Below, in pieces: positions 4,169-45,039 of a stretch of DNA of 45,147 bases (its first letter is position 1; each line of letters begins with the position of its first letter). The notes beneath the pieces were generated by a model. That model saw nothing but the letters and a program-made list of their open reading frames with translations, had not been told where the DNA came from and made no database searches. This DNA is from Candidatus Nanopelagicales bacterium (GTDB lineage Bacteria > Actinomycetota > Actinomycetes > S36-B12 > UBA5976): NCBI GenBank assembly GCA_038124905.1, contig JAYPCW010000001.1:1824-46970 (forward strand), written 5' to 3'. The position numbers and the translations under genes were made by a program.

Positions 4169-4197
4169 GCAGACTTGGTACCTCTGGCTAGTTGTAA

Positions 4198-5004: not shown

Positions 5005-5029
5005 ATTTATCAAATTTGAGTTTATACAC

Positions 5030-5060
5030 AAGGGGTGCAGCCCTTACAGCTGCACCCCTT
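5030..5060 (-). terminator. GC-rich hairpin between the binding-protein gene and the GntR gene (intra-operon terminator or attenuator candidate)
   Basis: AAGGGGTGCAGC / GCTGCACCCCTT forms a perfect 12-bp stem with a 7-nt loop. No clear U-tract on either strand. Confidence 0.5.
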
Positions 5061-5097
5061 GCTGGAATAATTTAACTAACTCGCGTTAGCGTAAAAA

Positions 5098-6123: not shown

Positions 6124-6192
6124 CTTAACTCCTTCTCCTTCAGCAACTTGCTGTAATGACAACCCTATAACTCTGCAGGGTAGACATGGCTA

Positions 6193-6202
6193 TAGTTAAC
6201 TA
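6193..6202. promoter_or_regulatory. 10-bp perfect palindrome TAGTTAACTA in the divergent promoter region (candidate GntR/HutC operator)
   Basis: Perfect palindrome with a GT-TA-AC core. It lies between the binding-protein operon and the epimerase operon. Confidence 0.3.
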
Positions 6203-6279
6203 AAATCGTTACCGTCTTGTTAGATTTGTCCGATCCATTGAGACGGATGTTGCGTATGAGCCTGGAAGGTGAGACTTAA

Positions 6280-7149
6280 ATGCCAAATTTACTAGGAGTT
6301 CACGCCCTAGTTTGGGCAGGTGGCTGGAGCGAATCTGAGGTGAGAACTGCCGTAGCTAGCACAAAAAATGCAGGCTACGACCTTATAGAAATTCCTGCGC
6401 TGAGCCCAACTGATATCGACCCAATTTTCACCAAGAAAATCTTGGATGAATACCAAGTTAAAAGCTCATGTTCACTAGGTCTCACTTTCGATGCTGACTT
6501 GAACAATGAAGATGAGAATGTAGTTGGGCGAGGCGAGGCAAGACTGCTTCAGGCCTTAGATCTAGTTAGGAAATTAGAAGGCGAGTATTTAGGAGGGGTG
6601 ATATTTAGTGCTTTAGGTAAATACTTAAATCCTCCCACCGCTAAAGCTCGTGCAAATGTAGTCGCTGCATTAAAAAGACTGGCTAAGCAAGCCAAAAAAG
6701 ATGGCATCACACTCGGACTTGAAGTTGTAAACCGATACGAAAGCAATTTATTGAACACTGGCAGGAGTGCGCTTGACTTGATTAATGAAATAGGTGAATC
6801 TAATGTTGTCGTACATTTAGATACCTACCATATGAACATCGAAGAAATGAATATGTTTGATCCGGTTATCGAAGTCCAGGAAAAACTTGGTTATGTTCAT
6901 ATTGGTGCCAATCATCGAGGTTTCTTAGATCAAAAGGGAATGATTGATTTTGACAACTTTTTTAAAGCGTTAGCACAAGTTAATTACCAAGGAGTAATTA
7001 CATTTGAAAGTTTTTCTTCTGCCATTGTCAGCAAAGATCTTTCCAACACGCTATGCATTTGGCGCAACTTATGGGAAGACAATCAAGCGCTAGCTATTGG
7101 GGCACGAGAATTTATCGAAGAAAAACTGCAAGCTGTAGGAATGAGATGA
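6280..7149 (+). CDS. ketose 3-epimerase (D-tagatose/D-psicose 3-epimerase family, xylose-isomerase-like TIM barrel)
   Basis: 289 aa. LGLEVVNRYESNLLNT, VHLDTYHMNIEE and GYVHIGANHRG match the EVVNRFE / LDTFHMNIEE / HxGExxR metal-ligand segments of characterised DTE/DPE enzymes (recalled). SD is GGAAGGTGAG. Confidence 0.7.
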   Translation: MPNLLGVHALVWAGGWSESEVRTAVASTKNAGYDLIEIPALSPTDIDPIFTKKILDEYQVKSSCSLGLTFDADLNNEDENVVGRGEARLLQALDLVRKLEGEYLGGVIFSALGKYLNPPTAKARANVVAALKRLAKQAKKDGITLGLEVVNRYESNLLNTGRSALDLINEIGESNVVVHLDTYHMNIEEMNMFDPVIEVQEKLGYVHIGANHRGFLDQKGMIDFDNFFKALAQVNYQGVITFESFSSAIVSKDLSNTLCIWRNLWEDNQALAIGAREFIEEKLQAVGMR

Positions 7150-8168
7150 AAGCAGTTGTATTAAATGATTTTAATGATTTAGTGCTAACTAAATTGCCTA
7201 CTCCTAGTCCTGGGCCGGGCGAGGTGCTAATTCAAGTTTTAGCTTGTGGGATTTGTGGAACAGATCGACATATCTACAAGGGTGAATACCCCTCCAAAAA
7301 ACCTGTAGTACTTGGACATGAATTTGGAGGTCGCATCACTTCGCTCGGTAGTGAGGTAAGCGAGTTCAAAATCGGAGACTTAGTATCCGTTGATCCCAAT
7401 ATAGTTTGTGGACGTTGTGATGACTGCCTTGCCAAAAGGACAGCGTTCTGCCCCAAACTGACAGCGCTAGGGGTAAACACGCATGGTGGCTTGGCTGAGT
7501 ATGCCTTAGTTCCAAGAACTCAAATTTACAAAGTGCCAGAAAATTTAAATCCAAATTATTTGGCTTTTATTGAGCCCTTAGCCTGCACTATAAGAGGTTT
7601 TGACCTAGGCAACTTGCAAGGCGGCGAAAAGGTAGCAATTCTTGGCGGTGGCGTTATTGGTCTACTTGCGGTGCAACTAGCAAAGTTGGCCAAAGCGAAA
7701 GAAATTATTTTAATAACTCGGCAGAGTGCCCGCCGTAAAACAGCATTAAAAATTGGTGCAACTCGCGCTATTGATCCCAATCAAGAAGATGTAATCAAAG
7801 TAGTAAAAGGCATGGACGTCAGTTTCGAATGTGCAGGAGCTACGGCAACCTTTAAGCAAGCACAGCAAATAACTCGCCGAGGTGGTTCAATAATCGTTCT
7901 AGGATTAACCGCTCAAGGCGTAGAGGTGCCGATCAGTCCATTTGATCTCGTAATTAACGAACACAAGATTCAGGGCTCGTACCTTAATCCTCACACCCAA
8001 CAGCGGGCAGCCGAATTAGTAGCAAGTGGAAAATTGCAACTCGAGCCTTTAATTTCTAAGGTTGTGCCGCTAGATCAAGTTCCCAACCTGTTAGCTGCTG
8101 ACCCAGGACAGGGCGATATTAAATATATTGTCTCAAGTCAGGCCGGAGCGAAACTAAATCAGGCGTAA
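7146..8168 (+). CDS. zinc-dependent alcohol/polyol dehydrogenase (MDR family, sorbitol/threonine-dehydrogenase-like)
   Basis: MKAVVLNDF..., the GICGTDRHIYKGEY catalytic Zn motif, the CGRCDDCLAKRTAFC structural Zn motif, and the GGGVIGLLAVQLAK Rossmann loop. The start at 7146 makes an ATGA overlap with the epimerase stop. The track's upstream extension is out of character. Confidence 0.85.
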   Translation: MKAVVLNDFNDLVLTKLPTPSPGPGEVLIQVLACGICGTDRHIYKGEYPSKKPVVLGHEFGGRITSLGSEVSEFKIGDLVSVDPNIVCGRCDDCLAKRTAFCPKLTALGVNTHGGLAEYALVPRTQIYKVPENLNPNYLAFIEPLACTIRGFDLGNLQGGEKVAILGGGVIGLLAVQLAKLAKAKEIILITRQSARRKTALKIGATRAIDPNQEDVIKVVKGMDVSFECAGATATFKQAQQITRRGGSIIVLGLTAQGVEVPISPFDLVINEHKIQGSYLNPHTQQRAAELVASGKLQLEPLISKVVPLDQVPNLLAADPGQGDIKYIVSSQAGAKLNQA

Positions 8169-9357
8169 TTTCAGAAAGACTCTTTACCCCTAGTAGTTTC
8201 ATAGAAGTTTCCATTTCTAATTTAAAAATGTCAACCAACTTTTGCACACCTGGCTTTCCCCCGGCCATTAAGCCATACAAATACGCACGACCCAACATCA
8301 CACCAGTTGCGCCAAAACCAATGGCAGCCAAAACGTCGGTAGAACTCATAACGCCACCATCTATATAAACTTCCATTTTTTTACCAACCGCTTTAACCAT
8401 TTCTGGCAAAGTTTCAAGCGGGACCGTTCCTCGATCCATTTGCCGGCCACCATGATTAGAAATCACTATTGCGTCGACACCATATTTGACTAGCTCCTTG
8501 GCGTCATCAACTCGTTGCACACCTTTAACCACTAATGGACCACCCCAAGTGTCTTTTAGCCACTTTATGTCTTTCATCGTGACACTTGGATCAAATATCT
8601 TTTTCGATAATTCAAACAAAGGTGCGTCATAGCCCCTAAAAGTGGCAAACTCTAATGGTGGTGTCGTTAATAAATTACCCCACCACTTTGGCTTAGTCGC
8701 CATATCTAAAAAGGTCTTTGCTTTGATTTTAGGCGGCACGGTTAATCCATTTTTACTGTCTTTTGGTCTTTGCCCGCTAATTGGAGTATCTACAGTGAGA
8801 ATCAATGCCTCAAAACCATCGCGCCGGGCATCTTCAATGAACTTTTTACTTTGTTCTCGATCATTCCATAAATAAAGTTGAAACCAACGGCGAACATCTG
8901 GCACAGCACTGGCTAATTCGCTTGTTGACGTGGTTCCCATTGTGGATAGTGAGTAGACCAAATCATTTTCAAGAGCTACCTCTGCGACAGCAGGCTCCCC
9001 TAAGTAATGCATCATGCGTGAATAGCCAGTTGGGGCAAAAATTATCGGCATGGCCGCTTTTTTACCCAAAATTTTTTGGCTGTAATCAATCTGACTCACG
9101 TTTCTTAAAACTCTTGGTTTGAATTCAACTCGCTTAAATGCATCTTTCGCTCTTTGTAAACTGATTTCTTCTAGCGCCGCACCATCTACGTAGTCAAAAA
9201 CAGATCTGGGCACCCGTTTTTTTGCTACCGCTCTTAAGTCTTCTGCACTAAAACAAGCTTCGAGCTTGCGATCCTTCCTTTCAAACATAGATGAAAAACT
9301 CCAGCCCAACAAAGGCTTAATACTTTTCCAGCGAGGAAACTGTCGCTTGATCACCAT
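8119..9357 (-). CDS. FMN-dependent alpha-hydroxy-acid dehydrogenase/oxidase (L-lactate dehydrogenase LldD-like)
   Basis: 412 aa. FDYVDGAALEEISLQRAKDAF, the SNHGGRQMD catalytic motif and YIDGGVMSSTDVLAAIGFGA are present. Last gene of the minus-strand fuconate operon. Confidence 0.8.
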   Translation of the reverse strand: MVIKRQFPRWKSIKPLLGWSFSSMFERKDRKLEACFSAEDLRAVAKKRVPRSVFDYVDGAALEEISLQRAKDAFKRVEFKPRVLRNVSQIDYSQKILGKKAAMPIIFAPTGYSRMMHYLGEPAVAEVALENDLVYSLSTMGTTSTSELASAVPDVRRWFQLYLWNDREQSKKFIEDARRDGFEALILTVDTPISGQRPKDSKNGLTVPPKIKAKTFLDMATKPKWWGNLLTTPPLEFATFRGYDAPLFELSKKIFDPSVTMKDIKWLKDTWGGPLVVKGVQRVDDAKELVKYGVDAIVISNHGGRQMDRGTVPLETLPEMVKAVGKKMEVYIDGGVMSSTDVLAAIGFGATGVMLGRAYLYGLMAGGKPGVQKLVDIFKLEMETSMKLLGVKSLSEITPDLVSLRPDLRQYI

Positions 9358-9361: not shown

Positions 9362-10204
9362 TTAGACATCCAATTTGTAAGAGTTTATTGCGGTCTTCGA
9401 CCAGAAATATTCTTTCTCATCTTTGCTCAATTGGCTAGTTAAACTTTCAGCGATATTAATCACCTGTGAATAAGACGCCGCAAGTAGGCAAACTGGCCAA
9501 TCAGAACCGAACATCAACCTTTTAGGTCCAAAAGCATCTAATAACACCTCAACATAAGGCCTAAAGTCATCAAGTGTCCAATTCTTCCAATCAGCTTCGG
9601 TGACCATGCCAGAGATTTTCACTGCAAGATTTTCTTGTTTTGCCAAAGTTTTCATATTGCTGGCCCAAGGCTCCAGCTCTCCTTTGGCAATATACGGCTT
9701 CGAAATATGGTTCAGCACAAAGTAAGTATCTGGACATTCATTAACCGCTCTTATAGCCGATGCTAACTGAGGAGGCAAAGTAAGTAAATCGTAGGTTAAA
9801 TTTTTTACTCCTAAATATTTAAGGTTCTTAATTACCTCTGGGCGTTCAAGCCATTTATTATCAGATTTTTGTTGAACTTGATCCCTAATAGCAACCAGCT
9901 TTTTGCTCCCCGGGTGTGCCAAATATTCAGATAATTGACTGTGTATATCTTGCTCCAAATCTAACCAGCCCACCACGCCTGCGACTTTTGGATTCGTCGC
10001 TGCGATCTCTAAAAATTCAGGTGTTTCTTCAGGCACGGTGACAGTTTGAACTAACACTGTGTAATCGATCCGATTTTGAGCCAATTCCGGCTCGAAGTCC
10101 TTCATTAAAATGGTTTTATTAATCGGATCAAAATCGGGTGAAGTCATCCAATCCTGTGCTCGGACAGAAAGATCCCAAACATGATGGTGAGAGTCAATTC
10201 TCAC
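9362..10204 (-). CDS. amidohydrolase-2 family lactonase (L-fucono-1,5-lactonase-like)
   Basis: 280 aa. MRIDSHHHVWDL... is the characteristic ID(A/S)HxHxW start of amidohydrolase_2 sugar lactonases, and FGSDWPV lies near the C-terminus. Sits in a fuconate pathway context. Confidence 0.7.
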   Translation of the reverse strand: MRIDSHHHVWDLSVRAQDWMTSPDFDPINKTILMKDFEPELAQNRIDYTVLVQTVTVPEETPEFLEIAATNPKVAGVVGWLDLEQDIHSQLSEYLAHPGSKKLVAIRDQVQQKSDNKWLERPEVIKNLKYLGVKNLTYDLLTLPPQLASAIRAVNECPDTYFVLNHISKPYIAKGELEPWASNMKTLAKQENLAVKISGMVTEADWKNWTLDDFRPYVEVLLDAFGPKRLMFGSDWPVCLLAASYSQVINIAESLTSQLSKDEKEYFWSKTAINSYKLDV

Positions 10205-10206: not shown

Positions 10207-11109
10207 CTAACCTTTTGCCACAATGTTCTTTAGTTCTTTGCCTTGAGCTAACAGTTCTAACTGACTCTTTACTAACTTTCTAATCCGCGGCTCGAAAGCC
10301 GTTGAGTTACCTCCAACGTGCGGCACGATAAATGCATTTTCTTGCTTCCATAAAGCGTGTTCGCTTGGCAAAGGCTCGGGGTCCGTCACATCGACCGCAG
10401 CGAAGATGCGTTTTTTTGCTAACTCACTTACCAAAGCATCAGTGTCGACAATTACGCCCCGCGCCACATTCACAAGTAGCGCGCCATCTTTCAAGAGTGA
10501 AAGTCTCTTTGCGTTAAATAATTTCACAGATTGGGCGTTAGCTGGCAATATCAAAACCACCACATCAAAGGTAGGCAAAAATTCATCTAACTCAGATATT
10601 TGCTTAGCGCCGTCGCTACCGGAGCGATTAAAGGCTGTTAACTCAACTTCAAAAGGCTCAATCATCTGGGCAAACTTTTTACCGATCGATCCATAGCCAA
10701 CTAGGCCAACTCTTTTACCAGCCAGCGAATGCAAGCGTTTGTGATCCCAGGTAGCACTCTGTTGCATCTTGAAAAAATGCGGAAACCCTCTTAGCGAGGC
10801 GATGGTCAATCCCAATGCCAGTTCCGCAGTTGACATGTCGTGTACACCTCGAGCATTACACAGGGTCAAATTTGGTTTCAAAAACTCAATCGCATCGTCA
10901 TATCCAGCATTAGGCAATTGAATGTACTGCAAATTTGGCATTTCTCGTATTGGCAACAAAGCGGCTCGCCCACCCATGTAAGTAGGCACATAAAAAGTTA
11001 TTTCTTCAATTTTTTTTGAATCTAACGGAGCATTCTTAGGACTCAGCATTTCAAAACCGGGTGGCCCAGTTAAGTCATCCCACTGGGTCCAAACTATGTG
11101 CTTTGACAA
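10207..11109 (-). CDS. D-isomer-specific 2-hydroxyacid dehydrogenase, NAD-binding
   Basis: 300 aa. VGLVGYGSIGKKF, LVNVARGVIVD, DVTDPEPLP and IVPHVGGNS are present. TTG start lies 1 nt after the upstream stop. Confidence 0.75.
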   Translation of the reverse strand: MSKHIVWTQWDDLTGPPGFEMLSPKNAPLDSKKIEEITFYVPTYMGGRAALLPIREMPNLQYIQLPNAGYDDAIEFLKPNLTLCNARGVHDMSTAELALGLTIASLRGFPHFFKMQQSATWDHKRLHSLAGKRVGLVGYGSIGKKFAQMIEPFEVELTAFNRSGSDGAKQISELDEFLPTFDVVVLILPANAQSVKLFNAKRLSLLKDGALLVNVARGVIVDTDALVSELAKKRIFAAVDVTDPEPLPSEHALWKQENAFIVPHVGGNSTAFEPRIRKLVKSQLELLAQGKELKNIVAKG

Positions 11110-11110: not shown

Positions 11111-11959
11111 TTAGTTAACCTCCTTTACGGTTTTCACAGAATTGCTTAACTCTCCAATTTGACTTGCTTGAATTCTCACCAAATCTCCCTCGTGCAAACT
11201 GATGTCCATCGGTGGGACGATGCCGGTGCCAGTTGAGAAAACCACTCCATTTTCAAACTTGTAGCACCGATATAAATAGTCAACTAAGACTTCAAATGGT
11301 CTTTTTAGTTGTGCAAGCGAGGTGGTTGCCTCCCACACGGCCTTATCTTTACGGAAAATTTGAGCGCTGATTTCTACTTGATTTAAATCAGAAATTTCCC
11401 AAATTGGTGTCACCACCGATAGCAAGCTACAAGAATGTTCATACATTTTGGCTTGGGGTAGGTAAAGTGGATTCTCTCCTTCTATGGTTCGTGAAGTGAC
11501 GTCATTGCAAATGGTCAAGCCTAAAATTTCTTTTTTGGAATTAACCAAGATAGCAATTTCAGGCTCAGGCACGCTCATAGTTGAGTCGTAACGAATACCA
11601 ACCCAATTATTTTCATTTACTACCCGGTTACCGATTGCTTTGAAAAAAATTTCTGGCCGGTCTGCCTCATAAACTCTCGTATAAACGTCTGGGACACCAC
11701 TTTCTTCGGTGCGAGCATCACGCGAACGCAAATAGGTAACCCCTGCTGCCCATACTTCACCATCACTATCGATGGGAGGCAGGAGTTCTACTAATTCAAT
11801 TTCATCGCCTTGAGTGTTTTCGATTAAGTTTTTTGCTTCCGCCAGTGACATTTGCAATAATTGCTTCCAGCAATGAACTGCAATTGGTCGCAAGCCCTTT
11901 TCAGTCTTGATTCCTAAGTGAAATACTCCATTTTTATCCCTGCCACTAATTAAAGACAT
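11111..11959 (-). CDS. fumarylacetoacetate-hydrolase (FAH) family protein, candidate 2,4-diketo-3-deoxy-L-fuconate hydrolase
   Basis: FAH-like C-terminal fold ([11 protein letters not shown]..., [17 protein letters not shown]). The start at ATG 11959 is preceded by GAGAGGAAAA and removes the overlap with the AKR gene. Function is assigned from cluster context. Confidence 0.6.
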
Positions 11960-11973
11960 TTTTTCCTCTCGAC

Positions 11974-12951
11974 TTATCTTTCGACGGGCTGAATTAATCC
12001 TTGAGTTTCTAATGAATCCCAAATGTCTTTAGGTAGGTCAATCGCAAAGTCTTTCAAATTGCTTTTCAATTCCTCACCGGTCCTGGCGCCAGTCAAAATT
12101 GCCTTGACTGCCGGATGCCTTAGCGGAAACTGCAATCCCACTGCGGATACCGGCACTCCAAAAGAGTCAATCGCTTCGTGTAAAGCTTTTGCATGATCAA
12201 TAATTTTTTTGCTAGCCGGCGCATAGTCGTATGTTGCACCGTCATTTGGATTTACCAAAACCCCAGAGTTGAATACTCCTGCAGCTAATACAGAGACGTT
12301 TCGCTCTAAAGCTGCGGGTAATAAGTCTTTGGCTGCCGTTTGCTCAAGCAAGGTGTATCTTCCAGCAATCAAAACAATATCGATATCAGTTTCCCTAACA
12401 AATCTTGTAGCCAAATCTGAAAAATTGATTCCTACGCCAATAGATTTAACTAATCCTTCGCTTCGCATTTTGTCTAGTTCGGGATATGCCTCATCAATTG
12501 CTTGATCCATATGATTCTCTGGGTCATGAATAAACAAAATATCAACGTGATCTAATTTCATTCGCTCTAAACTTTCCTCGAATGAACGTCTTACGCCTTT
12601 TGCAGAATAATCAAAAACCGGCGAGCAAGGTTCTAAATCTCTAAAAATTGTGGGCCCGGTGTATTCACCCTCTACCAAAATTCTTCCGACTTTTGTGGAA
12701 ACGATCGCGCTGGATTGCGCACCAGCTAAATGCAAACCACGCCCTAAGCGTTTTTCTGATTTTGTGTGACCATAAAAGGGCGCAGTATCAAAATAATTAA
12801 CTCCTGCTGAGGTTGCAGTTTTGATTAAGTCGTCTGAGCTAGATTCTTCAACACTTGAAAACATGCCACCCAAAGGTGCCGTGCCCAAACCCACTTTGCT
12901 CACTCTTAAGCCGCCGCGACCAAAGTCGACTAATTCTCGATGATTAGGCAT
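11974..12951 (-). CDS. aldo/keto reductase, L-fucose (D-threo-aldose) 1-dehydrogenase-like
   Basis: 325 aa. [17 protein letters not shown]...[19 protein letters not shown]...IHDPE are typical AKR motifs. Sits in a fuconate pathway context. Confidence 0.7.
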
Positions 12952-12960: not shown

Positions 12961-14706
12961 CTACCCAATCTCGGCAATCACCTTTGCTTGTAGTGACTTG
13001 GCGCTAGCAAGTAGTGGAGAATTTTCCACCATGCCCCCATCCGTTGACCAGGAGAATTCTTCAAAGATTTCTGCTTTAGCCTTATCCCATTCATCACGAT
13101 TTATCAGCACTCCAGCAAGGCTATTTACTTGAGCTTTAATCGGCACCTTAAAAAACTTCTCTGGTAAGTCGTGTCCTGAATCCTTTAAACCAAGAGAAAA
13201 GTTAGCTATCCGTTGCAAGGCTAGGCGCAATTTGCCCGCCTCATAAAATTCACCCTTCGAAACCTCTCTCCCTAGCACGGAGCCCACCATTTCTAAAATC
13301 CCGCTAAGTCGCAACTCTCTCGTTGGCGGAGAGGCGTAAATGCACACACCTACCGAATCAATTGCACTCCACAACTTCCAAAGTTCTTTAATTGATGGAA
13401 TGCGCTCTGGCCCAAGAGTTCCCATTCTTATTCCACCTTCGGGAACTCCAAACTCATATCCAAATTCAGTGTGACGGTCCCATGCCCAAGTGGGATCAAA
13501 ATCAATATCGTGTTCGATAACGTCATAGCGCGGTCCGCCTGGATTTAGAGCCATCGCCAAACCCAAACCTTGTGATCCACGCGGATCCCACGGAGGTATT
13601 ACCATTCCTTTAATCAAATCGGAATTGTCAGTTAATTCTTTCTCGGTGACTAAATTTAATGCAGTTCTAATTTCAATGTTCTTGTCAATTTTGTTTTCAA
13701 TAAATAATTGGCAGGCGTAAAGATGCTCCAAGCCTAACCTATGACATTCTTCATTGAATTGCACCGCGCGCTTCATGTCACTATCTGCATACTGTGAAAC
13801 AAACGCCGCGATACTGAGCTGATGCGCTCTTCCACCATTTATTGGATTATGCCCATCACTTGAATATGACTTTAGACAACTTTGCGCACATCCTGGGCAG
13901 GCCTTATCCCCAAAATCAACTTGTAGTTTTCTTATCTGTTCCGCATCGAACTTAGCTACCGAATCGGGTAATTGATCGGAAAAATTATCTCCTGCTTGGT
14001 ATCCAACAAGATTTGGTTGAATCCATAAAGAAAAACCATCTTGATACTCACTTAATGTCAAGGGATTATTTTTTAGACCTGAGAGATATTCATCAGTTAA
14101 TTTCTTAATTACTGAATTATCTTTTGCTATACCTTCTTCAAAAGCGACAAATTTTAGGTTCATCGACCCTGCTTGTCCACCAAGCCCACCTTGGCTTGTA
14201 GCGAATCCCTCGTCTATCACAATTGAGGCGGCTTTTTTTTGCGCTTCACCAAATTTACTGATCGCGGCAACAACTAGTTGCTCACCAAATTTTTCTCTTA
14301 CCTGACTTGCAGTTTGCCAAATATCTAGACCAGCAAAATTTTCTGCCGACATAAAATCAACTTCGGCATTCTTTTTTATTTTAATACCAGTTAATTTCAA
14401 ACTCTTCCCTTTAAAGGCAACCGCTAGTACACCCAAACCAAGTAACGCCTTGGCTAGTCGACCTTCAACCTTAGCTTCCACTACGCCACCTGATTGCGGT
14501 GAAACTCCAGTTACAGTCGCAGTGGCTAGACCAATGCCTTCATGTCCGGCTAGTTCTCCGCGCCCAAAAACTAAAAATTTTTTGATTCCCAATTTGGCAA
14601 AACTTGCTGCCAGAACACTGGACAGACTTACTAAATGATTCAGGTCACCGAACTCATGTAACTTCCAGGTCTGATTTTCGAGGTCAATTATCAAGGCTTT
14701 AGCCAC
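12961..14706 (-). CDS. aldehyde:ferredoxin oxidoreductase (AOR) family protein, divergent
   Basis: 581 aa with a GTG start after GGAGG. The N-terminal domain is AOR_N-like (MAKALIIDLENQTWKL...; ATSQGGLGGQAGSMNLKFVAF). CPGCAQSC (CxxCxxxC) plus distal DSVGVC fits the four-Cys [4Fe-4S] pattern of AORs. PWDPRGSQGLGLAMAL is also AOR-like. Confidence 0.65.
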   Translation of the reverse strand: MAKALIIDLENQTWKLHEFGDLNHLVSLSSVLAASFAKLGIKKFLVFGRGELAGHEGIGLATATVTGVSPQSGGVVEAKVEGRLAKALLGLGVLAVAFKGKSLKLTGIKIKKNAEVDFMSAENFAGLDIWQTASQVREKFGEQLVVAAISKFGEAQKKAASIVIDEGFATSQGGLGGQAGSMNLKFVAFEEGIAKDNSVIKKLTDEYLSGLKNNPLTLSEYQDGFSLWIQPNLVGYQAGDNFSDQLPDSVAKFDAEQIRKLQVDFGDKACPGCAQSCLKSYSSDGHNPINGGRAHQLSIAAFVSQYADSDMKRAVQFNEECHRLGLEHLYACQLFIENKIDKNIEIRTALNLVTEKELTDNSDLIKGMVIPPWDPRGSQGLGLAMALNPGGPRYDVIEHDIDFDPTWAWDRHTEFGYEFGVPEGGIRMGTLGPERIPSIKELWKLWSAIDSVGVCIYASPPTRELRLSGILEMVGSVLGREVSKGEFYEAGKLRLALQRIANFSLGLKDSGHDLPEKFFKVPIKAQVNSLAGVLINRDEWDKAKAEIFEEFSWSTDGGMVENSPLLASAKSLQAKVIAEIG

Positions 14707-14754
14707 TATCGACCTCCGGAATTAGAAAGACACTCACCAGCGCCGTTTGTTCAT

Positions 14755-14768
14755 CTTATAGGCTTTGG
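14755..14768. promoter_or_regulatory. CTTATAGGCTTTGG motif in the 97-bp divergent promoter region between the AOR-like gene and fucD (operator candidate)
   Basis: Closely resembles CCTATAGGATTTTGG at 16903-16917 and the palindrome core at 16881-16888. Confidence 0.35.
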
Positions 14769-14803
14769 CCGAGTAAGCACCAAGCTTTTTTACGGAGGAC
14801 GCA

Positions 14804-16099
14804 GTGGCAAAAATCGTCGGGTTTGAAACTCACGACGTTAGATTCCCAACTTCAACTGGCAAGCATGGCTCAGATGCAATGAATCCAGATCCGGACTATT
14901 CGGCCGCGTATTTAATTTTAAAAACCGATCAGCCAGATCTTGAAGGGCATAGCTTAGTTTTTACAATCGGCCGAGGTAACGACTTGCAATGCGCGTCTAT
15001 CGCCCAGTTGGCTGAGACAGTTGTTGGATTAGATTTAAATGAATTAGAGAGCAATCTCGGAAATATAGGTAGAGAATTAGTAAGAGATTCGCAAATTCGC
15101 TGGTTAGGTCCTGAAAAAGGTGTGCCACATATGGCTGCTGGTGGCGTGATAAATGCAGTCTGGGATTTAGTTTGCAAAATGAATAAAAAGCCGCTCTGGA
15201 AGCAACTTTCAGATATGACGCCAGAGCAAATTGTTGATTTAGTTGATTTTCGACATATAACTGATGCCCTCACTCCTCAAGAGGCCCTAGAGATTTTGAA
15301 AAAAGCTGAGAGCAAAAAAAGTGAAAATGAAAAGATTTTGTTACAAAAGGGCTTACCTGCCTACACCACTACACCCGGTTGGCTTGGTTACAGCGATGAA
15401 ACAATGGTGCGACTCGCAAAGGAAGCTTTAGAGGACGGCTTCACCCTAATTAAAATGAAAGTTGGACGTTCATTAGAAAATGACATTCATCGTTTAAAGC
15501 TTGTCCGTGAAACTATTGGCCCAGACATCAAGTTAGCTGTTGATGCTAACCAGGTTTGGGATGTAAAGGAAGCGATCGAATGGATTAAGGCTTTAAGTAA
15601 CGTCAACTTGCATTGGGTTGAGGAGCCAACGAGCCCGGACGACATATTGGGTCACGCAGCAATTGCGCGAGGTATCGCGCCAACTCGCGTTGCCACTGGC
15701 GAACATGTTCATAACCGCATTATGTTTAAACAACTTTTACAAGCAAATGCATTTTCATTTATGCAGATTGATGCCACCAGAGTTGCCGGAGTAAATGAGA
15801 ACATAGCAATGATTTTGATGGCAGCAAAATTTGGAATTCCAGTGTGCCCACATGCAGGTGGTGTAGGACTTTGTGAAATGGTCTCCCACCTAGCCATGTT
15901 TGATGCGGTAGCCGTCACTGGTCACCATGAGGGTCGCGTGGTGGAATTTGTTGATCACTTGCATGAACATTTTGTAGTTCCAACGGTGGTAAAGAATGCC
16001 CACTATCTAGCACCATTAGAACCAGGCGCAGGTGCTGAAATTAAATTAGAAAGCATCAAGGAATACAGCTTTCCCACTGGCCCAGCTTGGAGTAACTAG
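14804..16099 (+). CDS. fucD: L-fuconate dehydratase (enolase superfamily, mandelate racemase subgroup)
   Basis: 431 aa with a GTG start after GGAGGA. The N-terminus IVGFETHDVRFPTSTGKHGSDAMNPDPDYSAAYLILKTD is near-identical in pattern to Xanthomonas campestris FucD (recalled). VDANQVWDV, WVEEPTSPDDILGHA and TGEH are also present. Confidence 0.9.
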   Translation: MAKIVGFETHDVRFPTSTGKHGSDAMNPDPDYSAAYLILKTDQPDLEGHSLVFTIGRGNDLQCASIAQLAETVVGLDLNELESNLGNIGRELVRDSQIRWLGPEKGVPHMAAGGVINAVWDLVCKMNKKPLWKQLSDMTPEQIVDLVDFRHITDALTPQEALEILKKAESKKSENEKILLQKGLPAYTTTPGWLGYSDETMVRLAKEALEDGFTLIKMKVGRSLENDIHRLKLVRETIGPDIKLAVDANQVWDVKEAIEWIKALSNVNLHWVEEPTSPDDILGHAAIARGIAPTRVATGEHVHNRIMFKQLLQANAFSFMQIDATRVAGVNENIAMILMAAKFGIPVCPHAGGVGLCEMVSHLAMFDAVAVTGHHEGRVVEFVDHLHEHFVVPTVVKNAHYLAPLEPGAGAEIKLESIKEYSFPTGPAWSN

Positions 16100-16845
16100 T
16101 GGCTGACTTTCAAAATCAAATAGCAATCGTAACTGGTGCTGCAAGTGGAATTGGTTTTTCATGCGTGAAGCAACTAACTGAGCAAGGCGCTCGAGTATTT
16201 GGTTTTGATTTAACTCCTGGTGACTTAGATTCGATTGCCACCTTCGTAGAGTGCGACATCACTAGCCAATCTTCGGTAGATGCGGCTTTTGAAAAAGTCT
16301 CTAGTCAGGTAGATCGTGTTGATATCTTGATAAATAACGCTGGAGTTGGTGCAATTGGTACCGTCGAAGACGCAACTGACGATGACTGGCAGCGAGTATT
16401 TAATGTTTGTGTTTTTGGAACTGCCAGAGTTACTAAAAAGTTTTTACCACTGATTCGAAAATCGCAAAACAAAGCAATTGTTAATACCGGTTCAGTTGCC
16501 GCACCGGTAGGGATTCCTAAGCGTGCGGTCTACTCTTCGGCTAAAGGTGCAATTCAAACTTTAACTCTTGCCATGGCCGCCGATTTTGTTAGTGAGAAAA
16601 TCAGAGTGAATTCAGTTAACCCAGGTACCGCTGACACTCCTTGGGTGCAAAGACTGTTAGCGCAAGCTGATGACCCCAAAAAAGAGCGAGCAGCCTTAGA
16701 GGCGCGCCAGCCAATTGGCCGGTTAGTTTCACCAGATGAAGTTGCTCACGCAATTTTGTACTTAGCTAATCCAAAATCCGCTTCAACTACCGGCACCTTG
16801 CTTTCAGTTGATGGTGGATTAGGAAACCTTTACTTACCCAAGTAA
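16099..16845 (+). CDS. short-chain dehydrogenase/reductase, candidate 2-keto-3-deoxy-L-fuconate 4-dehydrogenase
   Basis: 248 aa. TGAASGIG, NNAG and the YSSAK catalytic motif are present. Its GTG start shares 1 nt with the fucD stop (TAGTG). Confidence 0.75.
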   Translation: MADFQNQIAIVTGAASGIGFSCVKQLTEQGARVFGFDLTPGDLDSIATFVECDITSQSSVDAAFEKVSSQVDRVDILINNAGVGAIGTVEDATDDDWQRVFNVCVFGTARVTKKFLPLIRKSQNKAIVNTGSVAAPVGIPKRAVYSSAKGAIQTLTLAMAADFVSEKIRVNSVNPGTADTPWVQRLLAQADDPKKERAALEARQPIGRLVSPDEVAHAILYLANPKSASTTGTLLSVDGGLGNLYLPK

Positions 16846-16990: not shown

Positions 16991-17683
16991 ATGAAAACTA
17001 AAGATTCGATATATCCAAGGCGCCTACCTGGCGTTAGATTTAATTTAAGTGATGATGTTTTTTTTATTATTCGAAAAAAAATTATGACTCGTGAAATTCG
17101 CCCTGGTGATCGAATGAATATAGATTCTCTCTCTCGTGATTTAAATGTTTCTCAAACCCCCATCCGTGAAGCGCTTGCTCGCTTAGAAGAAACTGGTTTG
17201 GTTATCAAAGAGCCGCTGAAGGGCTTTAGAGCTTCGCAATTATTAAATGCAAAGGAAGCACAAGATTTATTCAATTTCAGGAGTGTTCTTGAACCCTACG
17301 CGGCAAAGATTGCTGCGGAGTTTTCTACTAAGGAACAAATTGAGCAGATGTACAAGGAAATAGATTTTGCGAAAGAAATTCAAAATCTTAGCGGAATTGA
17401 GGCATTCGAGAAACTAGCTGAGCATGATGAAAATATCCATACTCAGATTTTTGAAGCAGCAGGTAATGCACTGCTAACTAAGGCGTACAAAGCTAGCCAT
17501 TGTTTTTTGCACTTATACAGGCTTCATTTTATTCGTGACGTACCTGTCGACTTTGAGGAGACAATGACGGAGCACGCTGCAATTATTTCAGCTCTTGAAA
17601 TGGGCGACAGCCATGAAGCTTTCTCTGCGATGGCTCAACATATTGACAATGCAAGAAATCGTTTTCAATACCCTGCCATTTGA
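16991..17683 (+). CDS. GntR-family transcriptional regulator, FadR subfamily (FCD domain)
   Basis: 230 aa. The HTH is MNIDSLSRDLNVSQTPIREALARLEETGLV. The C-terminal domain is all-helical and carries His residues typical of FCD. Confidence 0.8.
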   Translation: MKTKDSIYPRRLPGVRFNLSDDVFFIIRKKIMTREIRPGDRMNIDSLSRDLNVSQTPIREALARLEETGLVIKEPLKGFRASQLLNAKEAQDLFNFRSVLEPYAAKIAAEFSTKEQIEQMYKEIDFAKEIQNLSGIEAFEKLAEHDENIHTQIFEAAGNALLTKAYKASHCFLHLYRLHFIRDVPVDFEETMTEHAAIISALEMGDSHEAFSAMAQHIDNARNRFQYPAI

Positions 17684-19113
17684 AGCAGCTGATCTGCGGT
17701 AAATGCATAAACATTCATGTCTAAATACCCACTAGCAATTCCGTAGGTTCTTCCATCTCCCCTGTCGGTGTATTGCCAAAAAGTCCAAGCTTTCTCGCAA
17801 TCAGACATACTCCAAATGGTTCTTGTGCAGCCACGAGTAACCGTGGTTGCCGGGTTAGAAACTTGTGAATAATTGGCAATCCAAAGCGGATAATTAGCAA
17901 GTCTTTGATCGCGCAAATATAACTGAATAAAATTTAAATTAGAGTAAATAATTGGTTTTCTACCGGTTCGCGCTTCTACTTGTTGTACAAAACCAACGGA
18001 AAAACTCGAAACCACACTTGCGCCAATATTTGAAGGCCTAGAAAAAGGTTCAATATCAAGAACTATTGGCAAAACTCCCGGCCTCATTCCACCAAGTGAA
18101 TTCAAGTGATTTACTGCAATATCAGCTTGGGCTACACCTTGCTGAAATCCTGTTTCAACATTGGCATCCGATGAAATTAATGCAGCGTGATAGATACCAG
18201 TTAATAAACCAGCTTCTCTCGCTTTTGGAAAATCGATACTCGACCAGTAATTTGCTCTTTGATTTGCATCTGCACCACCAGAAGTCCCTTTTATGAATAT
18301 GTAACGCATCCCTGCGTTATACATTCTCACAAAATCAATCGGGGCGTTCCCTGGATGTTGCCAAAGAGAAATATCGGTTCCTAAAATTCGATCATTTGGG
18401 CCAACTCTTTGCCCAAAGTCTCCCCCGCGAGGTTGTGGTTTAGGCATGCCAGCAATTACTAACTTTTTGATTGTGGCTTCTTGGCTAGCTATCAATTTCT
18501 CTATACGAGTTGTCTCATTTTTTGCCTTGGTCTCGGCTGCTGCCATCTCGGCTACTAATTGACTGGTTCTAACCTTGCGTTCTGAAATGATTTCTTCTTG
18601 CTCTCTGGCTTCAGCTTCTTTGGCTTCAAGTTCTAATTGAGTTGAAACTAATTGCTCAACTATCTGGTTGGAGTCTTGATAGATCATCTCCAAAGACATC
18701 AAGATTGATGTCAAGTCGCCACTATCGCTAGAGCCAAAAATCGCATCAAGCACTAATAACTCTTGCTGTACGCCATCAATATGAGTAGCACGAACGAGGT
18801 CTGCAATTTGATCTTGAGTGGAACTGATTAATAATGAAAGTGTCTCAATATCTGTTGAAATTTGCTCAATGTTTGCTTGAGCTTCATTCAGCTCTCGATT
18901 TACTTTTCGATCTTCGCTTCTAGCTTTTTCTAACTCTGCTTTAGCGAGTTTAAGATCCTCTCGAGCTTTAGCTAACTCTTCTTTGGTGGCAGCGAGTTCC
19001 GCTCTTGCCGCGTCAACCTGAGCATTCGCCGGCATAGGAGCGGCCAAGGCAGGTGCATTTACTAAAAATGCGACTAAGACAAGTGCTATTGCTTTTATGA
19101 GATACTTGGGCAT
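17665..19113 (-). CDS. secreted coiled-coil protein with a C-terminal GH25 muramidase (lysozyme) domain
   Basis: Signal peptide MPKYLIKAIALVLVAFLVNAPALAAP. Roughly 190 aa of heptad-rich sequence follows (AELAATKEELAKAREDLKLAKAELEKA...). The C-terminal GTDISLWQHPGNAPIDFVRMYNAGMRYIFIKGTSG...GLLTGIYHAA is GH25-like. Confidence 0.65.
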   Translation of the reverse strand: MPKYLIKAIALVLVAFLVNAPALAAPMPANAQVDAARAELAATKEELAKAREDLKLAKAELEKARSEDRKVNRELNEAQANIEQISTDIETLSLLISSTQDQIADLVRATHIDGVQQELLVLDAIFGSSDSGDLTSILMSLEMIYQDSNQIVEQLVSTQLELEAKEAEAREQEEIISERKVRTSQLVAEMAAAETKAKNETTRIEKLIASQEATIKKLVIAGMPKPQPRGGDFGQRVGPNDRILGTDISLWQHPGNAPIDFVRMYNAGMRYIFIKGTSGGADANQRANYWSSIDFPKAREAGLLTGIYHAALISSDANVETGFQQGVAQADIAVNHLNSLGGMRPGVLPIVLDIEPFSRPSNIGASVVSSFSVGFVQQVEARTGRKPIIYSNLNFIQLYLRDQRLANYPLWIANYSQVSNPATTVTRGCTRTIWSMSDCEKAWTFWQYTDRGDGRTYGIASGYLDMNVYAFTADQLLQMAGY

Positions 19114-44699: not shown

Positions 44700-44711
44700 T
44701 TCATATTCCCC

Positions 44712-45026: not shown

Positions 45027-45039
45027 TTTGTTCAACCCC

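What the first reader, a model, noticed from the sequence alone, without database searches (positions are those of the whole stretch)
12961..14706. AOR-family (tungsto/molybdopterin, Fe-S) protein is the first gene of an L-fucose/L-fuconate operon
**Seen in the sequence**
- The 581-aa product has an AOR-like N-terminal domain.
- CPGCAQSC plus DSVGVC gives the four-Cys [4Fe-4S] pattern of aldehyde:ferredoxin oxidoreductases, and PWDPRGSQGLGLAMAL is an AOR-like segment.
- The gene has a GGAGG SD and sits 9 nt upstream of the L-fucose-dehydrogenase-like AKR. It heads a tightly packed six-gene operon that is divergent from fucD.
- Where archaeal AORs carry the catalytic EYE(T) segment, my by-eye alignment gives HQLS. 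The active site may therefore be remodelled.

**Established knowledge**
- AOR-family enzymes are oxygen-sensitive W/Mo-pterin enzymes, known mainly from anaerobes and archaea.
- The characterised fuconate route (Xanthomonas campestris type) contains no such enzyme.

**Inference**
- It could oxidise an aldehyde intermediate, for example lactaldehyde from an aldolase branch, or an aldose.
- Alternatively it could be a new non-canonical AOR-fold function tied to 6-deoxyhexose catabolism.
Basis: partly seen in the sequence, partly recalled or inferred. Interest (0 to 1): 0.72.

Follow-up and report, generated by a model that had tools for sequence, protein, structure and literature searches.

The report
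Remodelled AOR-fold protein in fucose operons
A gene at the head of an L-fucose breakdown operon in an aerobic aquatic actinobacterium encodes a protein with the fold and iron-sulfur site of tungsten aldehyde oxidoreductases, but the residues that normally hold and assist the tungsten cofactor are replaced, so it probably does something new in sugar catabolism.

Summary
ORF 12961-14706 lies on the minus strand (581 aa) and matches both AOR Pfam domains weakly. Its AlphaFold model has the AOR fold (TM 0.81 to 1AOR), and all four [4Fe-4S] cysteines are kept.

It heads a six-gene operon: AOR-like, L-fucose/L-galactose dehydrogenase (AKR), FAH-family enzyme, 2-hydroxyacid dehydrogenase, L-fuconolactonase and FMN lactate dehydrogenase. 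The operon is divergent from an L-fuconate dehydratase (593 bits to Xanthomonas FucD) and an SDR.

The linkage recurs. 51 of 67 relatives with enough flanking DNA have FucD or the lactonase within 6 kb. This holds in several gene orders, down to 26-31% identity (Catellatospora; a locus with a GH29 fucosidase). Other subclades sit in other sugar-acid clusters.

The window's subclade has replaced every second-shell catalytic residue of aldehyde-oxidising AORs. It has also replaced the basic residues (R76, R186, K196) present in the solved tungsten enzymes I aligned. Deeper relatives in the same operons keep them.

Best reading: an uncharacterised, probably tungstopterin-free, Fe-S AOR-fold protein acting in the upper L-fucose pathway. 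It is not a classical aldehyde:ferredoxin oxidoreductase. Its reaction is unknown, and I found no literature on it.

The parts
12961..14706 (-). AOR-like gene (581 aa, GTG start). It is a divergent AOR/WOR-superfamily protein and the first gene of the operon.
   Evidence: ORF and translation. Pfam AFOR_N and AFOR_C. AF2 model and Foldseek match to 1AOR, TM 0.81. dN/dS 0.13 against L013.
14713..14717 (-). GGAGG Shine-Dalgarno sequence, 6 nt upstream of the GTG start.
   Evidence: Sequence read.
13876..13899 (-). CPGCAQSC (C270, C273, C277), equivalent to Pf AOR Cys288/291/295. These are three of the four [4Fe-4S] ligands.
   Evidence: Conserved in essentially every full-length relative across the 92 loci.
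13342..13359 (-). DSVGVC (D450...C455), equivalent to the Pf AOR D489-x-x-G-x-C494 motif. It holds the fourth cluster ligand.
13813..13824 (-). HQLS, standing where AORs carry E311-Y312-E313. H295 and Q296 are invariant in the clade. Position 297 varies (L/Q/I/M/K).
13495..13536 (-). GPRYDVIEHDIDFD, the clade signature. It replaces the GxxH448...Y452 segment of AORs: Y394 stands for His448 and H399 for Tyr452.
14149..14208 (-). GFATSQGG...SMNLKF. The family motif is (H/R)xxGRxGxGAVMGSKxLKA. Here R182->F168, R186->Q172 and K196->M182.
   Evidence: (R186 and K196 are present in 1AOR, FOR, BamB, WOR83 and AOR_Aa).
14515..14532 (-). GLATAT. T62 stands where W-enzymes have R76 (K in FOR).
13723..13746 (-). 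CHRLGLEH. This is the first pterin motif D338-x-x-G-L-D343-T344 changed to H322...E327-H328.
11974..12951 (-). Aldo-keto reductase. Probable L-fucose/L-galactose 1-dehydrogenase.
   Evidence: Pfam. Best PDB matches are L-galactose dehydrogenases.
11111..12022 (-). FAH-family enzyme. Either a diketo-acid hydrolase or a KdaD-like dehydratase. The true start is probably downstream of the mechanical ORF start.
   Evidence: Pfam. PDB 2Q18 KdaD, 158 bits. L007 gene call of 282 aa.
10207..11109 (-). D-isomer-specific 2-hydroxyacid dehydrogenase.
9362..10204 (-). Amidohydrolase_2, L-fucono-1,5-lactonase type.
   Evidence: NCBIfam FuconLaconase 205 bits (below that model's curated cut-off of 400). PDB 4DNM/4DO7 family, 138 bits.
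8119..9357 (-). FMN-dependent L-lactate (2-hydroxyacid) dehydrogenase. Last gene of the operon.
14804..16099 (+). L-fuconate dehydratase (FucD), divergent from the AOR-like gene.
   Evidence: 593 bits, full length, to Xanthomonas FucD 2HXT/1YEY.
16099..16845 (+). SDR. Probable 2-keto-3-deoxy-L-fuconate 4-dehydrogenase.
   Evidence: The position next to FucD is conserved.
16991..17683 (+). GntR/FCD regulator. Probable regulator of the cluster.
   Evidence: Recurs in related loci.

Best explanation
**What it is**
- The gene encodes a real protein under purifying selection. It belongs to an uncharacterised actinobacterial clade of the AOR/WOR superfamily.
- The clade signature is F225, H295-Q296, GPRYD, E-HDxDFD and PPTR.
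- The clade is a standing component of oxidative (non-phosphorylative) aldose pathways, above all the L-fucose -> L-fuconate -> 2-keto-3-deoxy-L-fuconate route.

**What is kept and what is changed (shown)**
- The protein keeps the AOR fold and the four cysteines of the [4Fe-4S] cluster.
- In the window's subclade the basic residues next to the pterin phosphates and Mg site are replaced (R76, R182, R186, K196). D343 becomes Glu.
- A Gly-rich segment of roughly 25-60 residues is deleted.
- The whole second shell around tungsten is replaced (T243, E311, Y312, E313, Y427, H448, Y452). Much of it is now a new, strictly conserved set of His, Gln, Glu, Tyr, Asp and Arg residues.

**How it most likely works (inferred)**
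- It no longer carries the tungsto-/molybdopterin and is not an aldehyde:ferredoxin oxidoreductase.
- It uses the former cofactor cavity as a new polar, possibly metal-binding, pocket for a fucose-derived sugar, lactone or sugar acid. The Fe-S cluster then serves a structural or auxiliary role.
- The immediately adjacent, often translationally coupled, partners are the sugar 1-dehydrogenase (AKR, ADH_Zn or SDR), the lactonase or FucD. On that basis I place its action in the upper pathway, at the aldose/aldonolactone/aldonate stage.
- It descends from a still cofactor-competent ancestor form found in the same operons of high-GC actinomycetes.
- The exact reaction is not established.
For: **Superfamily and fold**
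- Pfam domains, PDB sequence matches and the AF2 model with its fold search.

**Fe-S ligands**
- C270, C273, C277 and C455 are conserved in essentially every full-length relative across the 92 loci.

**Residue replacements**
- The second-shell residue list comes from PMC12096430 and PMC13328260.
- R186 is conserved in 99% and K196 in 96% of 76 canonical representatives.
- R186 and K196 are present in the five solved W-enzymes aligned (1AOR, FOR, BamB, WOR83, AOR_Aa); position 76 is R in four and K in FOR. The window has T62, Q172 and M182.
- These replacements occur together. Nine 'ancestral-like' relatives keep R76, R186, K196, E313 and D343, while 83 'derived' ones have lost them.

**A pocket that is still constrained**
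- Residues at former cofactor-contact positions are invariant within the clade.
- dN/dS is 0.13.

**Genomic context**
- 51 of 67 derived loci with enough flank have FucD or the fuconolactonase within 6 kb.
- At least four distinct gene orders occur.
- Ancestral-like members sit beside FucD, AKR, the lactonase, lutABC or a GH29 fucosidase.
- Other subclades lie in other clusters that combine a sugar dehydrogenase, a lactonase and an enolase-superfamily dehydratase.
- Pathway assignments rest on FucD, the lactonase and the AKR.

**No cofactor or electron-transfer support nearby**
- No ferredoxin motif occurs in any locus other than LutB.
- No Moco/Tuco riboswitch was found.
- The Pfam-annotated parts of the window contain no moa, moe, mod or tup genes.

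**Literature**
- Moco biosynthesis is reported in only one of four complete acI genomes, and in some Planktophila rather than other Nanopelagicales genera (PMC5301498 and PMC12817590).
- A Ca. Nanopelagicus MAG nevertheless carries two paralogues (L003, L005).
Against: - Loss of the cofactor is inferred from sequence alone. No coordinates of the model could be inspected and no metal data exist.
- The roles of R186 and K196 in binding the pterin phosphates are inferred from their conservation and their closeness to the Mg ligand Ala183. I did not read them from a structure.
- Residues at the pterin-ring positions are not destroyed. D450 (= D489) is kept, and H or N stands at the D338 position, where many canonical members also have N. 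A modified way of binding the pterin therefore cannot be excluded.
- A fully Cys-ligated [4Fe-4S] cluster is most simply an electron-transfer centre, which argues for some redox role.
- Relatives in the same operons appear cofactor-competent. If the function is conserved across the clade, the cofactor might be too.
- The derived form also occurs in high-GC organisms (GC up to 0.70), which probably can make Moco.
- I did not check whether the genomes that carry the gene lack moa/moe genes.
- The pathway as annotated is already complete without this protein, so no missing step points to its reaction.
Confidence: 0.5

Rival explanations
1. It is still a W- or Mo-pterin aldehyde oxidoreductase. 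It would oxidise an aldehyde of the pathway and pass electrons through the [4Fe-4S] cluster to a ferredoxin encoded elsewhere. Candidate substrates are L-lactaldehyde from an aldolase branch, 2,5-dioxopentanoate from a KdaD-type dehydration of 2-keto-3-deoxy-D-arabinonate, or open-chain L-fucose itself.
For: - The AOR fold and all four cluster cysteines are kept.
- D489 is kept, and H or N stands at the D338 position.
- Ancestral-like relatives in the same operons keep R76, R186, K196, E313 and D343.
- The FAH gene resembles KdaD, whose product is an aldehyde, and the window's operon has no ALDH.
- Canonical WOR1 oxidises lactaldehyde (PMC11725836).
- One oxygen-tolerant WOR from an obligate aerobe is known (PMC13328260).
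Against: - Every second-shell residue implicated in aldehyde oxidation is replaced, and the E313 position is not even conserved within the subclade (L/Q/I/M/K).
- R76, R182, R186 and K196 are replaced by neutral residues.
- No ferredoxin, Moco gene or Moco riboswitch lies nearby.
- Most acI genomes are reported to lack Moco biosynthesis.
- Nanopelagicus-type clusters and the Catellatospora cluster have no FAH/KdaD gene near the AOR-like gene.
- Type-B clusters carry an ordinary ALDH as well.
Confidence: 0.2
2. It is a non-catalytic derivative of an AOR: a scaffold for the AKR/lactonase/FucD enzymes, or a redox- or O2-sensing Fe-S protein that modulates the pathway.
For: - It has lost catalytic and cofactor-anchoring residues but retains the Fe-S ligands.
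- It is the fastest-evolving gene of the operon: 75% amino-acid identity against 85-94% for its neighbours (window vs L014).
- Start and stop codons overlap those of neighbouring genes in several loci, which suggests stoichiometric co-production.
Against: - More than 50 residues are invariant across sequences only 31-75% identical. They include a dense polar set at the former active site, which is typical of a ligand-binding or catalytic pocket.
- A 580-aa protein is kept, sometimes in two copies, in genomes of about 1.3 Mb (genome size from PMC12817590).
Confidence: 0.15
3. It is a lower-pathway enzyme. One possibility is an alternative 2,4-diketo-3-deoxy-L-fuconate hydrolase/lyase in clusters that lack the FAH gene. 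Another is an electron acceptor for the FMN lactate dehydrogenase.
For: - Nanopelagicus type-C clusters and the Catellatospora cluster have FucD, SDR(s) and LldD or LutABC, but no FAH gene near the AOR-like gene.
- LldD co-occurs in 35 of 67 loci.
Against: - The window, L001, L007, L013, L014 and the second Nanopelagicus cluster carry both FAH and the AOR-like gene.
- The immediate neighbours are upper-pathway genes.
- Subclades in clusters without LldD or an SDR-type KDF dehydrogenase also keep the gene.
Confidence: 0.1

Closest known systems
Pyrococcus furiosus aldehyde:ferredoxin oxidoreductase (PDB 1AOR) and Clostridium autoethanogenum AFOR (9G7J)
   Same: - Three-domain AOR fold (TM 0.81).
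- AFOR_N plus AFOR_C domains.
- The C-x2-C-x3-C...C ligands of the [4Fe-4S] cluster.
- The D-x-x-G-x-C motif.
- The PxxDPRG segment.
   Different: - Only 18-20% identity.
- T243F, E311H, Y312Q, E313L, Y427W, H448Y and Y452H.
- R76T, R182F, R186Q, K196M, D338H, D343E and T344H.
- An internal Gly-rich segment is deleted.
- The host is an aerobic actinobacterium, and the gene lies inside a sugar operon.
Brevibacillus massiliensis WOR (clade 83) and Haloferax WOR83 (9Q1T): AOR-family enzymes from aerobes
   Same: - A Class-I (single large subunit) AOR-family protein in an aerobe.
   Different: - Those enzymes keep the cofactor-anchoring and catalytic residues and oxidise aldehydes with ferredoxin. 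The window protein keeps neither set.
'Ancestral-like' members of the same clade (e.g. Catellatospora bangladeshensis NBRC 107357, L006; P0132 in L011)
   Same: - Same clade signature: F225, HQ, GPRYD, EHDxDFD and PPTR.
- Same operon partners: AKR, fuconolactonase and FucD, and in L011 a GH29 fucosidase.
   Different: - They retain R76, R186, K196, E313 and D343 and score higher against Pfam AFOR (151 and 120 bits). They may therefore still bind the metallopterin.
- They share 26-36% identity with the window protein.
Xanthomonas campestris / Burkholderia multivorans non-phosphorylative L-fucose pathway
   Same: - The window has L-fucose dehydrogenase, L-fucono-1,5-lactonase, FucD, an SDR and a FAH-family enzyme.
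   Different: - The characterised pathway has no AOR-family protein. It also lacks the 2-hydroxyacid dehydrogenase and the FMN lactate dehydrogenase found in the same operon here.
Non-aldehyde members of the AOR family (BamB benzoyl-CoA reductase, WOR5/ASOR)
   Same: - They show that the AOR scaffold has been adapted to reactions other than aldehyde oxidation by changing the second shell.
   Different: - They still contain W-bis-pyranopterin and keep R76, R186 and K196 (shown for BamB). They work in anaerobes with dedicated electron-transfer subunits.

Membership tests
AOR/WOR superfamily (fold level) | AFOR_N (PF02730) plus AFOR_C (PF01314) domain architecture | tested here: met
   85.8 and 88.9 bits, both above the gathering cut-offs.
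AOR/WOR superfamily (fold level) | Three-domain AOR fold | tested here: met
   AF2 pLDDT 95.6. Foldseek gives 1aor_A E 5e-30, TM 0.81. Only AOR-family chains are significant.
AOR/WOR superfamily (fold level) | Four Cys ligands of the [4Fe-4S] cluster (Pf C288, C291, C295, C494) | tested here: met
   C270, C273, C277 and C455. Conserved in essentially every full-length relative.
Tungsto-/molybdopterin-containing AOR-family enzymes | Conserved basic residues by the pterin phosphate/Mg site (R/K76, R186, K196; R182 in Pf) | tested here: not met
   The window has T62, Q172, M182 and F168. R186 and K196 are 99% and 96% conserved in 76 canonical representatives. They are present in 1AOR, FOR, BamB, WOR83 and AOR_Aa. 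Their cofactor-binding role is inferred, not read from a structure.
Tungsto-/molybdopterin-containing AOR-family enzymes | Two pterin motifs, D338-x-x-G-L-(C/D)343 and D489-x-x-G-x-C494 | tested here: inconclusive
   The second motif is kept (DSVGVC). The first is changed to H322-R-L-G-L-E327-H328. N is common at position 338 in canonical members, but D343 is 99% conserved and is Glu here.
Tungsto-/molybdopterin-containing AOR-family enzymes | Presence of W or Mo and pyranopterin in the protein | not testable with these tools
   Needs ICP-MS and pterin analysis of purified protein.
Tungsto-/molybdopterin-containing AOR-family enzymes | Host genome encodes Moco/W-co biosynthesis and W or Mo uptake | not tested
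   None in the 45-kb window. No Moco riboswitch. The literature says most acI genomes lack the pathway. The genomes that carry the gene could not be scanned.
Aldehyde:ferredoxin oxidoreductase sensu stricto | Second-shell residues T243, E313, Y427 and H448 (plus E311, Y312, Y452) | tested here: not met
   F225, L297, W373 and Y394 (plus H295, Q296, H399). The residue list is from PMC12096430 and PMC13328260.
Aldehyde:ferredoxin oxidoreductase sensu stricto | Ferredoxin- or viologen-linked aldehyde oxidation | not testable with these tools
   Needs an enzyme assay.
Non-phosphorylative L-fucose (L-fuconate) pathway gene cluster | Co-located L-fucose dehydrogenase, L-fuconolactonase, FucD, KDF dehydrogenase and FAH-type enzyme | tested here: met
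   Synteny is conserved in many loci.
Non-phosphorylative L-fucose (L-fuconate) pathway gene cluster | Recurrent linkage of the AOR-like gene to that cluster across genomes | tested here: met
   51 of 67 derived loci have FucD or the lactonase within 6 kb. The ancestral-like loci L006, L011, L083, L084 and L089 are also linked.

The most novel reading that the evidence does not exclude
This may be the first AOR-fold protein that has dispensed with the tungsto-/molybdopterin. It would have rebuilt the cofactor cavity into a new His/Asp/Glu/Arg/Tyr (possibly metal-binding) active site next to a retained [4Fe-4S] cluster. It would then catalyse a so far unrecognised step or accessory reaction of aerobic L-fucose/aldose oxidation in Actinomycetota, including acI/Nanopelagicales, which are reported to be the most abundant freshwater bacterioplankton.
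Probability: 0.4. Interest if true: 0.85.

Novelty: new variant of a known kind. Interest (0 to 1): 0.66.

Why it matters
- AOR-family enzymes are regarded as oxygen-sensitive tungsten enzymes of anaerobes. Only one has been characterised from an obligate aerobe.
- Here a whole clade of the family is embedded in an aerobic sugar pathway of very abundant aquatic Actinomycetota. Within that clade, the residues that anchor and assist the cofactor have been replaced together while the Fe-S site is kept.
- If the protein is cofactor-free, it documents a new evolutionary fate for a metallopterin scaffold. It would also warn against counting such genes as evidence of tungsten or molybdenum use in comparative genomics.
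- If it is catalytic, the textbook non-phosphorylative L-fucose pathway lacks a component in these bacteria. These bacteria process fucose-rich algal and mucus polysaccharides.
- Cofactor-competent and cofactor-degenerate forms coexist in the same operon context. That gives a direct experimental handle on the question.

Tried and rejected
**Literature**
- 'aldehyde ferredoxin oxidoreductase' plus 'fuconate' returned 0 papers, and 'Nanopelagicales' plus 'molybdopterin' returned 0.
- WOR classification and review papers mention no actinobacterial or fucose-linked clade.
- I could not find a residue-level list of pterin contacts in the accessible papers. PMC10293930 is not held.

**Chimeric assembly or pseudogene: rejected**
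- Synteny is conserved in independent assemblies, and dN/dS is 0.13.

**Electron-transfer partner**
- A CxxCxxCxxxCP scan of all 92 loci and the window found only LutB in L006.

**Canonical mutarotase in the clusters**
- There was no FucU-like hit anywhere.
- RhaM-like genes occur only in L053, L055 and L079.

**Moco/Tuco riboswitch or other Rfam element**
- Nothing was found in the window or in 7 loci, apart from one tRNA.

**Promoters, terminators and operators in the 97-nt divergent intergenic region**
- Nothing exceeded chance. The inverted repeats are just the two mirrored SD/start contexts.

**Domain fusion as a functional clue**
- P0162 is a C-terminal fragment joined to low-complexity sequence and is uninformative.

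**Searches that failed**
- A metagenome scan with the 60-sequence alignment failed because the alignment was too diverse. I repeated it with 20 sequences.

**Checks I could not make**
- I could not inspect model coordinates or scan the genomes that carry the gene for moa/moe genes.
Full report
**1. The observation**

The ORF at 12961-14706 is real but lies on the minus strand (581 aa, GTG start). A GGAGG at 14713-14717 precedes the start by 6 nt. The stop is followed by 9 nt and then the ATG of the next gene.

Pfam finds AFOR_N (85.8 bits) and AFOR_C (88.9 bits). Both are above the gathering cut-offs but far below what canonical AORs give. The best solved relative by sequence, 1AOR, reaches only 56 bits.

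An AlphaFold2 model built on 60 relatives is confident (pLDDT 95.6, pTM 0.95). Its only significant structural neighbours are AOR, FOR, BamB and WOR5 (1aor_A: E 5e-30, TM 0.81, 18% identity). Superfamily membership and the fold are therefore settled.

**2. The operon**

Downstream on the same strand lie five more genes:
- An aldo-keto reductase. Its best PDB matches are L-galactose dehydrogenases.
- A FAH-family protein.
- A D-2-hydroxyacid dehydrogenase.
- An Amidohydrolase_2 protein of the L-fucono-1,5-lactonase type. It scores 205 bits against the NCBIfam model (below that model's curated cut-off of 400) and 138 bits to the Burkholderia enzyme 4DNM/4DO7.
- An FMN-dependent L-lactate dehydrogenase.

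Divergently transcribed are three genes:
- A full-length orthologue of Xanthomonas L-fuconate dehydratase (593 bits).
- An SDR.
- A GntR/FCD regulator.

This is the non-phosphorylative L-fucose route plus lactate oxidation. One correction applies. The FAH protein is closest in PDB to Sulfolobus 2-keto-3-deoxy-D-arabinonate dehydratase (2Q18, 158 bits). The lower pathway may therefore also, or instead, run Weimberg-like for D-arabinose.

The rest of the window is ordinary chromosome: ilv/leu genes, class II RNR and transporters. It has no Moco, tungstate or ferredoxin genes.

**3. Relatives and linkage**

- The protein has near-identical copies in MAGs annotated as Actinomycetota or Candidatus taxa.
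- It has relatives at 75% and 61-65% identity, and a large cloud of 583-aa proteins at about 45% from Nanopelagicales-type freshwater MAGs.
- An exhaustive search of 1.84 billion representatives found only 37 clusters at E < 1e-30. Below that, scores merge into generic AORs. This is a distinct, modest-sized clade.

I collected 92 loci and compared the window's operon proteins against them. Of 67 loci of the window's type with at least 3 kb of flank, 45 have a FucD orthologue, 46 the lactonase and 35 the LldD within 6 kb. 51 have FucD or the lactonase. Many loci are close variants of one another, but several distinct arrangements occur:
- **Type A (window type):** FucD-SDR <> AOR-AKR-FAH-2HacidDH-lactonase-LldD.
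- **Type B:** SDR-FucD <> AKR-AOR-2HacidDH-lactonase-LldD, with overlapping start and stop codons.
- **Type C (Nanopelagicus):** ABC transporter, FucD <> AOR-lactonase-LldD, with two SDRs.
- **Distant members (26-36% identity):** lutABC-AKR-AOR next to FucD-SDR and the lactonase in Catellatospora bangladeshensis. Also AKR-lactonase-FucD-AOR (L089) and lactonase-AOR-GH29 alpha-L-fucosidase (L011).

Other subclades sit in different oxidative sugar clusters:
- AOR-ADH_Zn-enolase-superfamily dehydratase-FAD lactone oxidase-SDR-SMP30 lactonase (L074).
- Sugar ABC transporter, AOR, GH36, SMP30 lactonase, SDR and GntR (L046).

The gene's immediate neighbours are nearly always a sugar 1-dehydrogenase-type gene, a lactonase or the dehydratase. 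Both are answered in favour of the finding.

**4. What has changed in the protein**

I mapped the sequence onto Pf AOR with a profile alignment, pairwise alignments to five solved W-enzymes and a MAFFT alignment of 112 representatives.

*Kept:*
- The four cluster cysteines.
- The second D-x-x-G-x-C motif.
- The PxxDPRG segment.

*Replaced, second shell.* Two recent reviews give this as the conserved second shell of aldehyde-oxidising AORs (PMC12096430, PMC13328260). All of it is replaced:
- T243 -> F225
- E311 -> H295
- Y312 -> Q296
- E313 -> L297
- Y427 -> W373
- H448 -> Y394
- Y452 -> H399

Position 297 is not even conserved within the subclade.

*Replaced, basic residues of domain 1.* These lie around the Mg/phosphate site, whose ligands are the carbonyls of N93 and A183:
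- R76 -> T
- R182 -> F (invariant)
- R186 -> Q (variable)
- K196 -> M/L

R186 and K196 are 99% and 96% conserved in 76 canonical representatives. They are present in 1AOR, FOR, BamB, Haloferax WOR83 and AOR_Aa.

*Other changes:*
- D343 (99% conserved) becomes Glu, and T344 becomes His.
- A Gly-rich segment between residues 340 and 366 is deleted.

These changes are coupled. Nine 'ancestral-like' loci keep R76, R186, K196, E313 and D343 while already sharing the clade signature. They include Catellatospora, L011, L083, L084 and L089, with GC 0.59-0.76. The 83 'derived' loci (GC 0.36-0.70) have lost all of them.

Residues now occupying former cofactor-contact positions are invariant across the derived clade: H295, Q296, E327, H328, R393, Y394, D395, E398, H399, D400, D402, T462 and R463. 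The gene is under purifying selection (dN/dS 0.13 against a 99% relative). It is nevertheless the fastest-evolving gene of the operon, at 75% against 85-94% identity to L014.

**5. Interpretation**

*Shown:*
- An AOR-fold protein that retains its Fe-S ligands.
- A standing member of actinobacterial L-fucose and related aldose operons.
- It lacks the residues that define aldehyde-oxidising AORs.

*Inferred:*
- The concerted loss of four basic residues around the pterin phosphates is best explained by loss of the metallopterin.
- The absence of any ferredoxin, Moco gene or Moco riboswitch nearby points the same way.
- So do reports that most acI genomes lack Moco biosynthesis, since a Nanopelagicus MAG keeps two paralogues.
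- The strictly conserved polar residues in the old cavity argue that the pocket is still used, most likely for a fucose-derived sugar, lactone or acid.
- The adjacency pattern points to the upper pathway.

I cannot name the reaction. The annotated pathway is already complete without this protein, so it is either an accessory step or a parallel route. Possible accessory steps include anomer or lactone handling, or ring opening inherited from an ancestor that bound the open-chain aldose.

I put about 0.5 on this overall reading. That breaks down roughly as 0.95 that it is a fucose-operon AOR-superfamily protein, about 0.8 that it is not a classical AOR, and about 0.55 that it is pterin-free.

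**6. Rivals**

- **Still a W/Mo aldehyde oxidoreductase (0.2).** Candidate substrates are lactaldehyde, 2,5-dioxopentanoate or the aldose. In its favour are the fully Cys-ligated cluster, the retained D489, the H or N at position 338, and the cofactor-competent relatives in the same operons. The KdaD-like FAH gene and the lack of an ALDH in the window's operon also fit. Against it are the residue losses and the context evidence above.
- **Non-catalytic scaffold or sensor (0.15).** The dense invariant polar pocket argues against it.
- **Lower-pathway role (0.1).** This would be a diketo-acid cleavage or an LldD partner. FAH and the AOR-like gene co-occur in many loci, and some subclades sit in clusters without LldD.
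- **Artefact or pseudogene.** Effectively excluded.

**7. Comparison with the known, and novelty**

The closest characterised relatives are Pf AOR and C. autoethanogenum AFOR (same fold and cluster, 18-20% identity). BmWOR and Haloferax WOR83 are the precedents from aerobes, but both keep all cofactor and catalytic residues. BamB and WOR5 show that the scaffold can take on other chemistry, but with the W cofactor retained.

The characterised L-fuconate pathways of Xanthomonas and Burkholderia contain no such protein. I found no paper connecting an AOR-family protein with fuconate or L-fucose catabolism. Public annotations are generic: 'aldehyde ferredoxin oxidoreductase ... domain-containing protein' or hypothetical.

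I class it as a new variant of a known kind. It would become more than that if cofactor loss and a new activity were demonstrated.

Noticed in passing
window 11111-12022 (-): The FAH-family gene of the operon is closest in PDB to Sulfolobus 2-keto-3-deoxy-D-arabinonate dehydratase KdaD (2Q18, 158 bits). It is much further from a FAH-family protein that may be a diketo-acid hydrolase (9KKT, 56 bits). The lower pathway may therefore include a Weimberg-type dehydration that yields an aldehyde. The mechanical ORF start also overlaps the AKR gene by about 49 nt and is probably too far upstream.
   Followed up: partly
L011 3026-4048 (+): In a high-GC relative, the AOR-like gene (P0132) is flanked by an Amidohydrolase_2 lactonase upstream and a GH29 alpha-L-fucosidase downstream, all with overlapping start and stop codons.
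   Followed up: partly
L003 8247-9998 and L005 4-1566: A single Candidatus Nanopelagicus MAG carries two paralogues (45% and 37% identical to the window protein). Each is followed by its own Amidohydrolase_2 lactonase. The second type (also in L057 and L068) sits by a second FucD paralogue plus AKR, FAH and 2-hydroxyacid dehydrogenase.
   Followed up: partly
L053 ~6184-6501, L055 ~5139-5456, L079 ~3186-3419: RhaM-like (L-rhamnose mutarotase) ORFs lie next to a second, 31-32% identical Amidohydrolase_2 gene a few kb from the AOR-like gene. This suggests combined rhamnose/fucose clusters.
   Followed up: no
L006 6087-8920 and 13457-14185: In Catellatospora bangladeshensis the AOR-like gene is co-directional with lutABC (lactate utilisation) and the AKR, in place of LldD. 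A TauE/SafE-family exporter lies about 2 kb downstream, and a 407-aa ORF with no Pfam match directly follows the AOR-like gene.
   Followed up: no
L001 (CAZXCT010000050.1): This record is titled 'uncultured Bifidobacterium sp.', yet it is syntenic with the window (FucD 89% and SDR 89% identical). The MAG's taxonomic label looks wrong.
   Followed up: no
window 16991-17683 (+) / 17665-19113 (-): The GntR/FCD regulator gene and a convergent 482-aa GH25 muramidase gene, which has a long N-terminal coiled-coil-like region, overlap by 19 nt at their 3' ends. The pairing is conserved in L001 and L014.
   Followed up: no
window 257-8168: A second carbohydrate cluster lies next to the fucose operon. 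It has a 2-hydroxyacid dehydrogenase, an FGGY kinase, a cupin-type GPI, a GntR/UTRA regulator, a sugar-binding protein without adjacent permease genes, a xylose-isomerase-like TIM barrel and a Zn-ADH. The 299-aa ORF at 257-1156 has no Pfam match.
   Followed up: no
window 44175-45035 (-): An adjacent DsrE/DsrF-like gene and a DsrC-like gene sit at the window edge in an aerobic actinobacterial context. Their function here is unclear.
   Followed up: no
window 14698-14812: The two divergent genes (AOR-like and FucD) have mirror-image translation starts. Both use GGAGG, a 5-6 nt spacer and GTG-GCx-AAA (Met-Ala-Lys). This produces the inverted repeats I2 and I3. No operator-like palindrome or above-chance promoter match was found.
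   Followed up: yes
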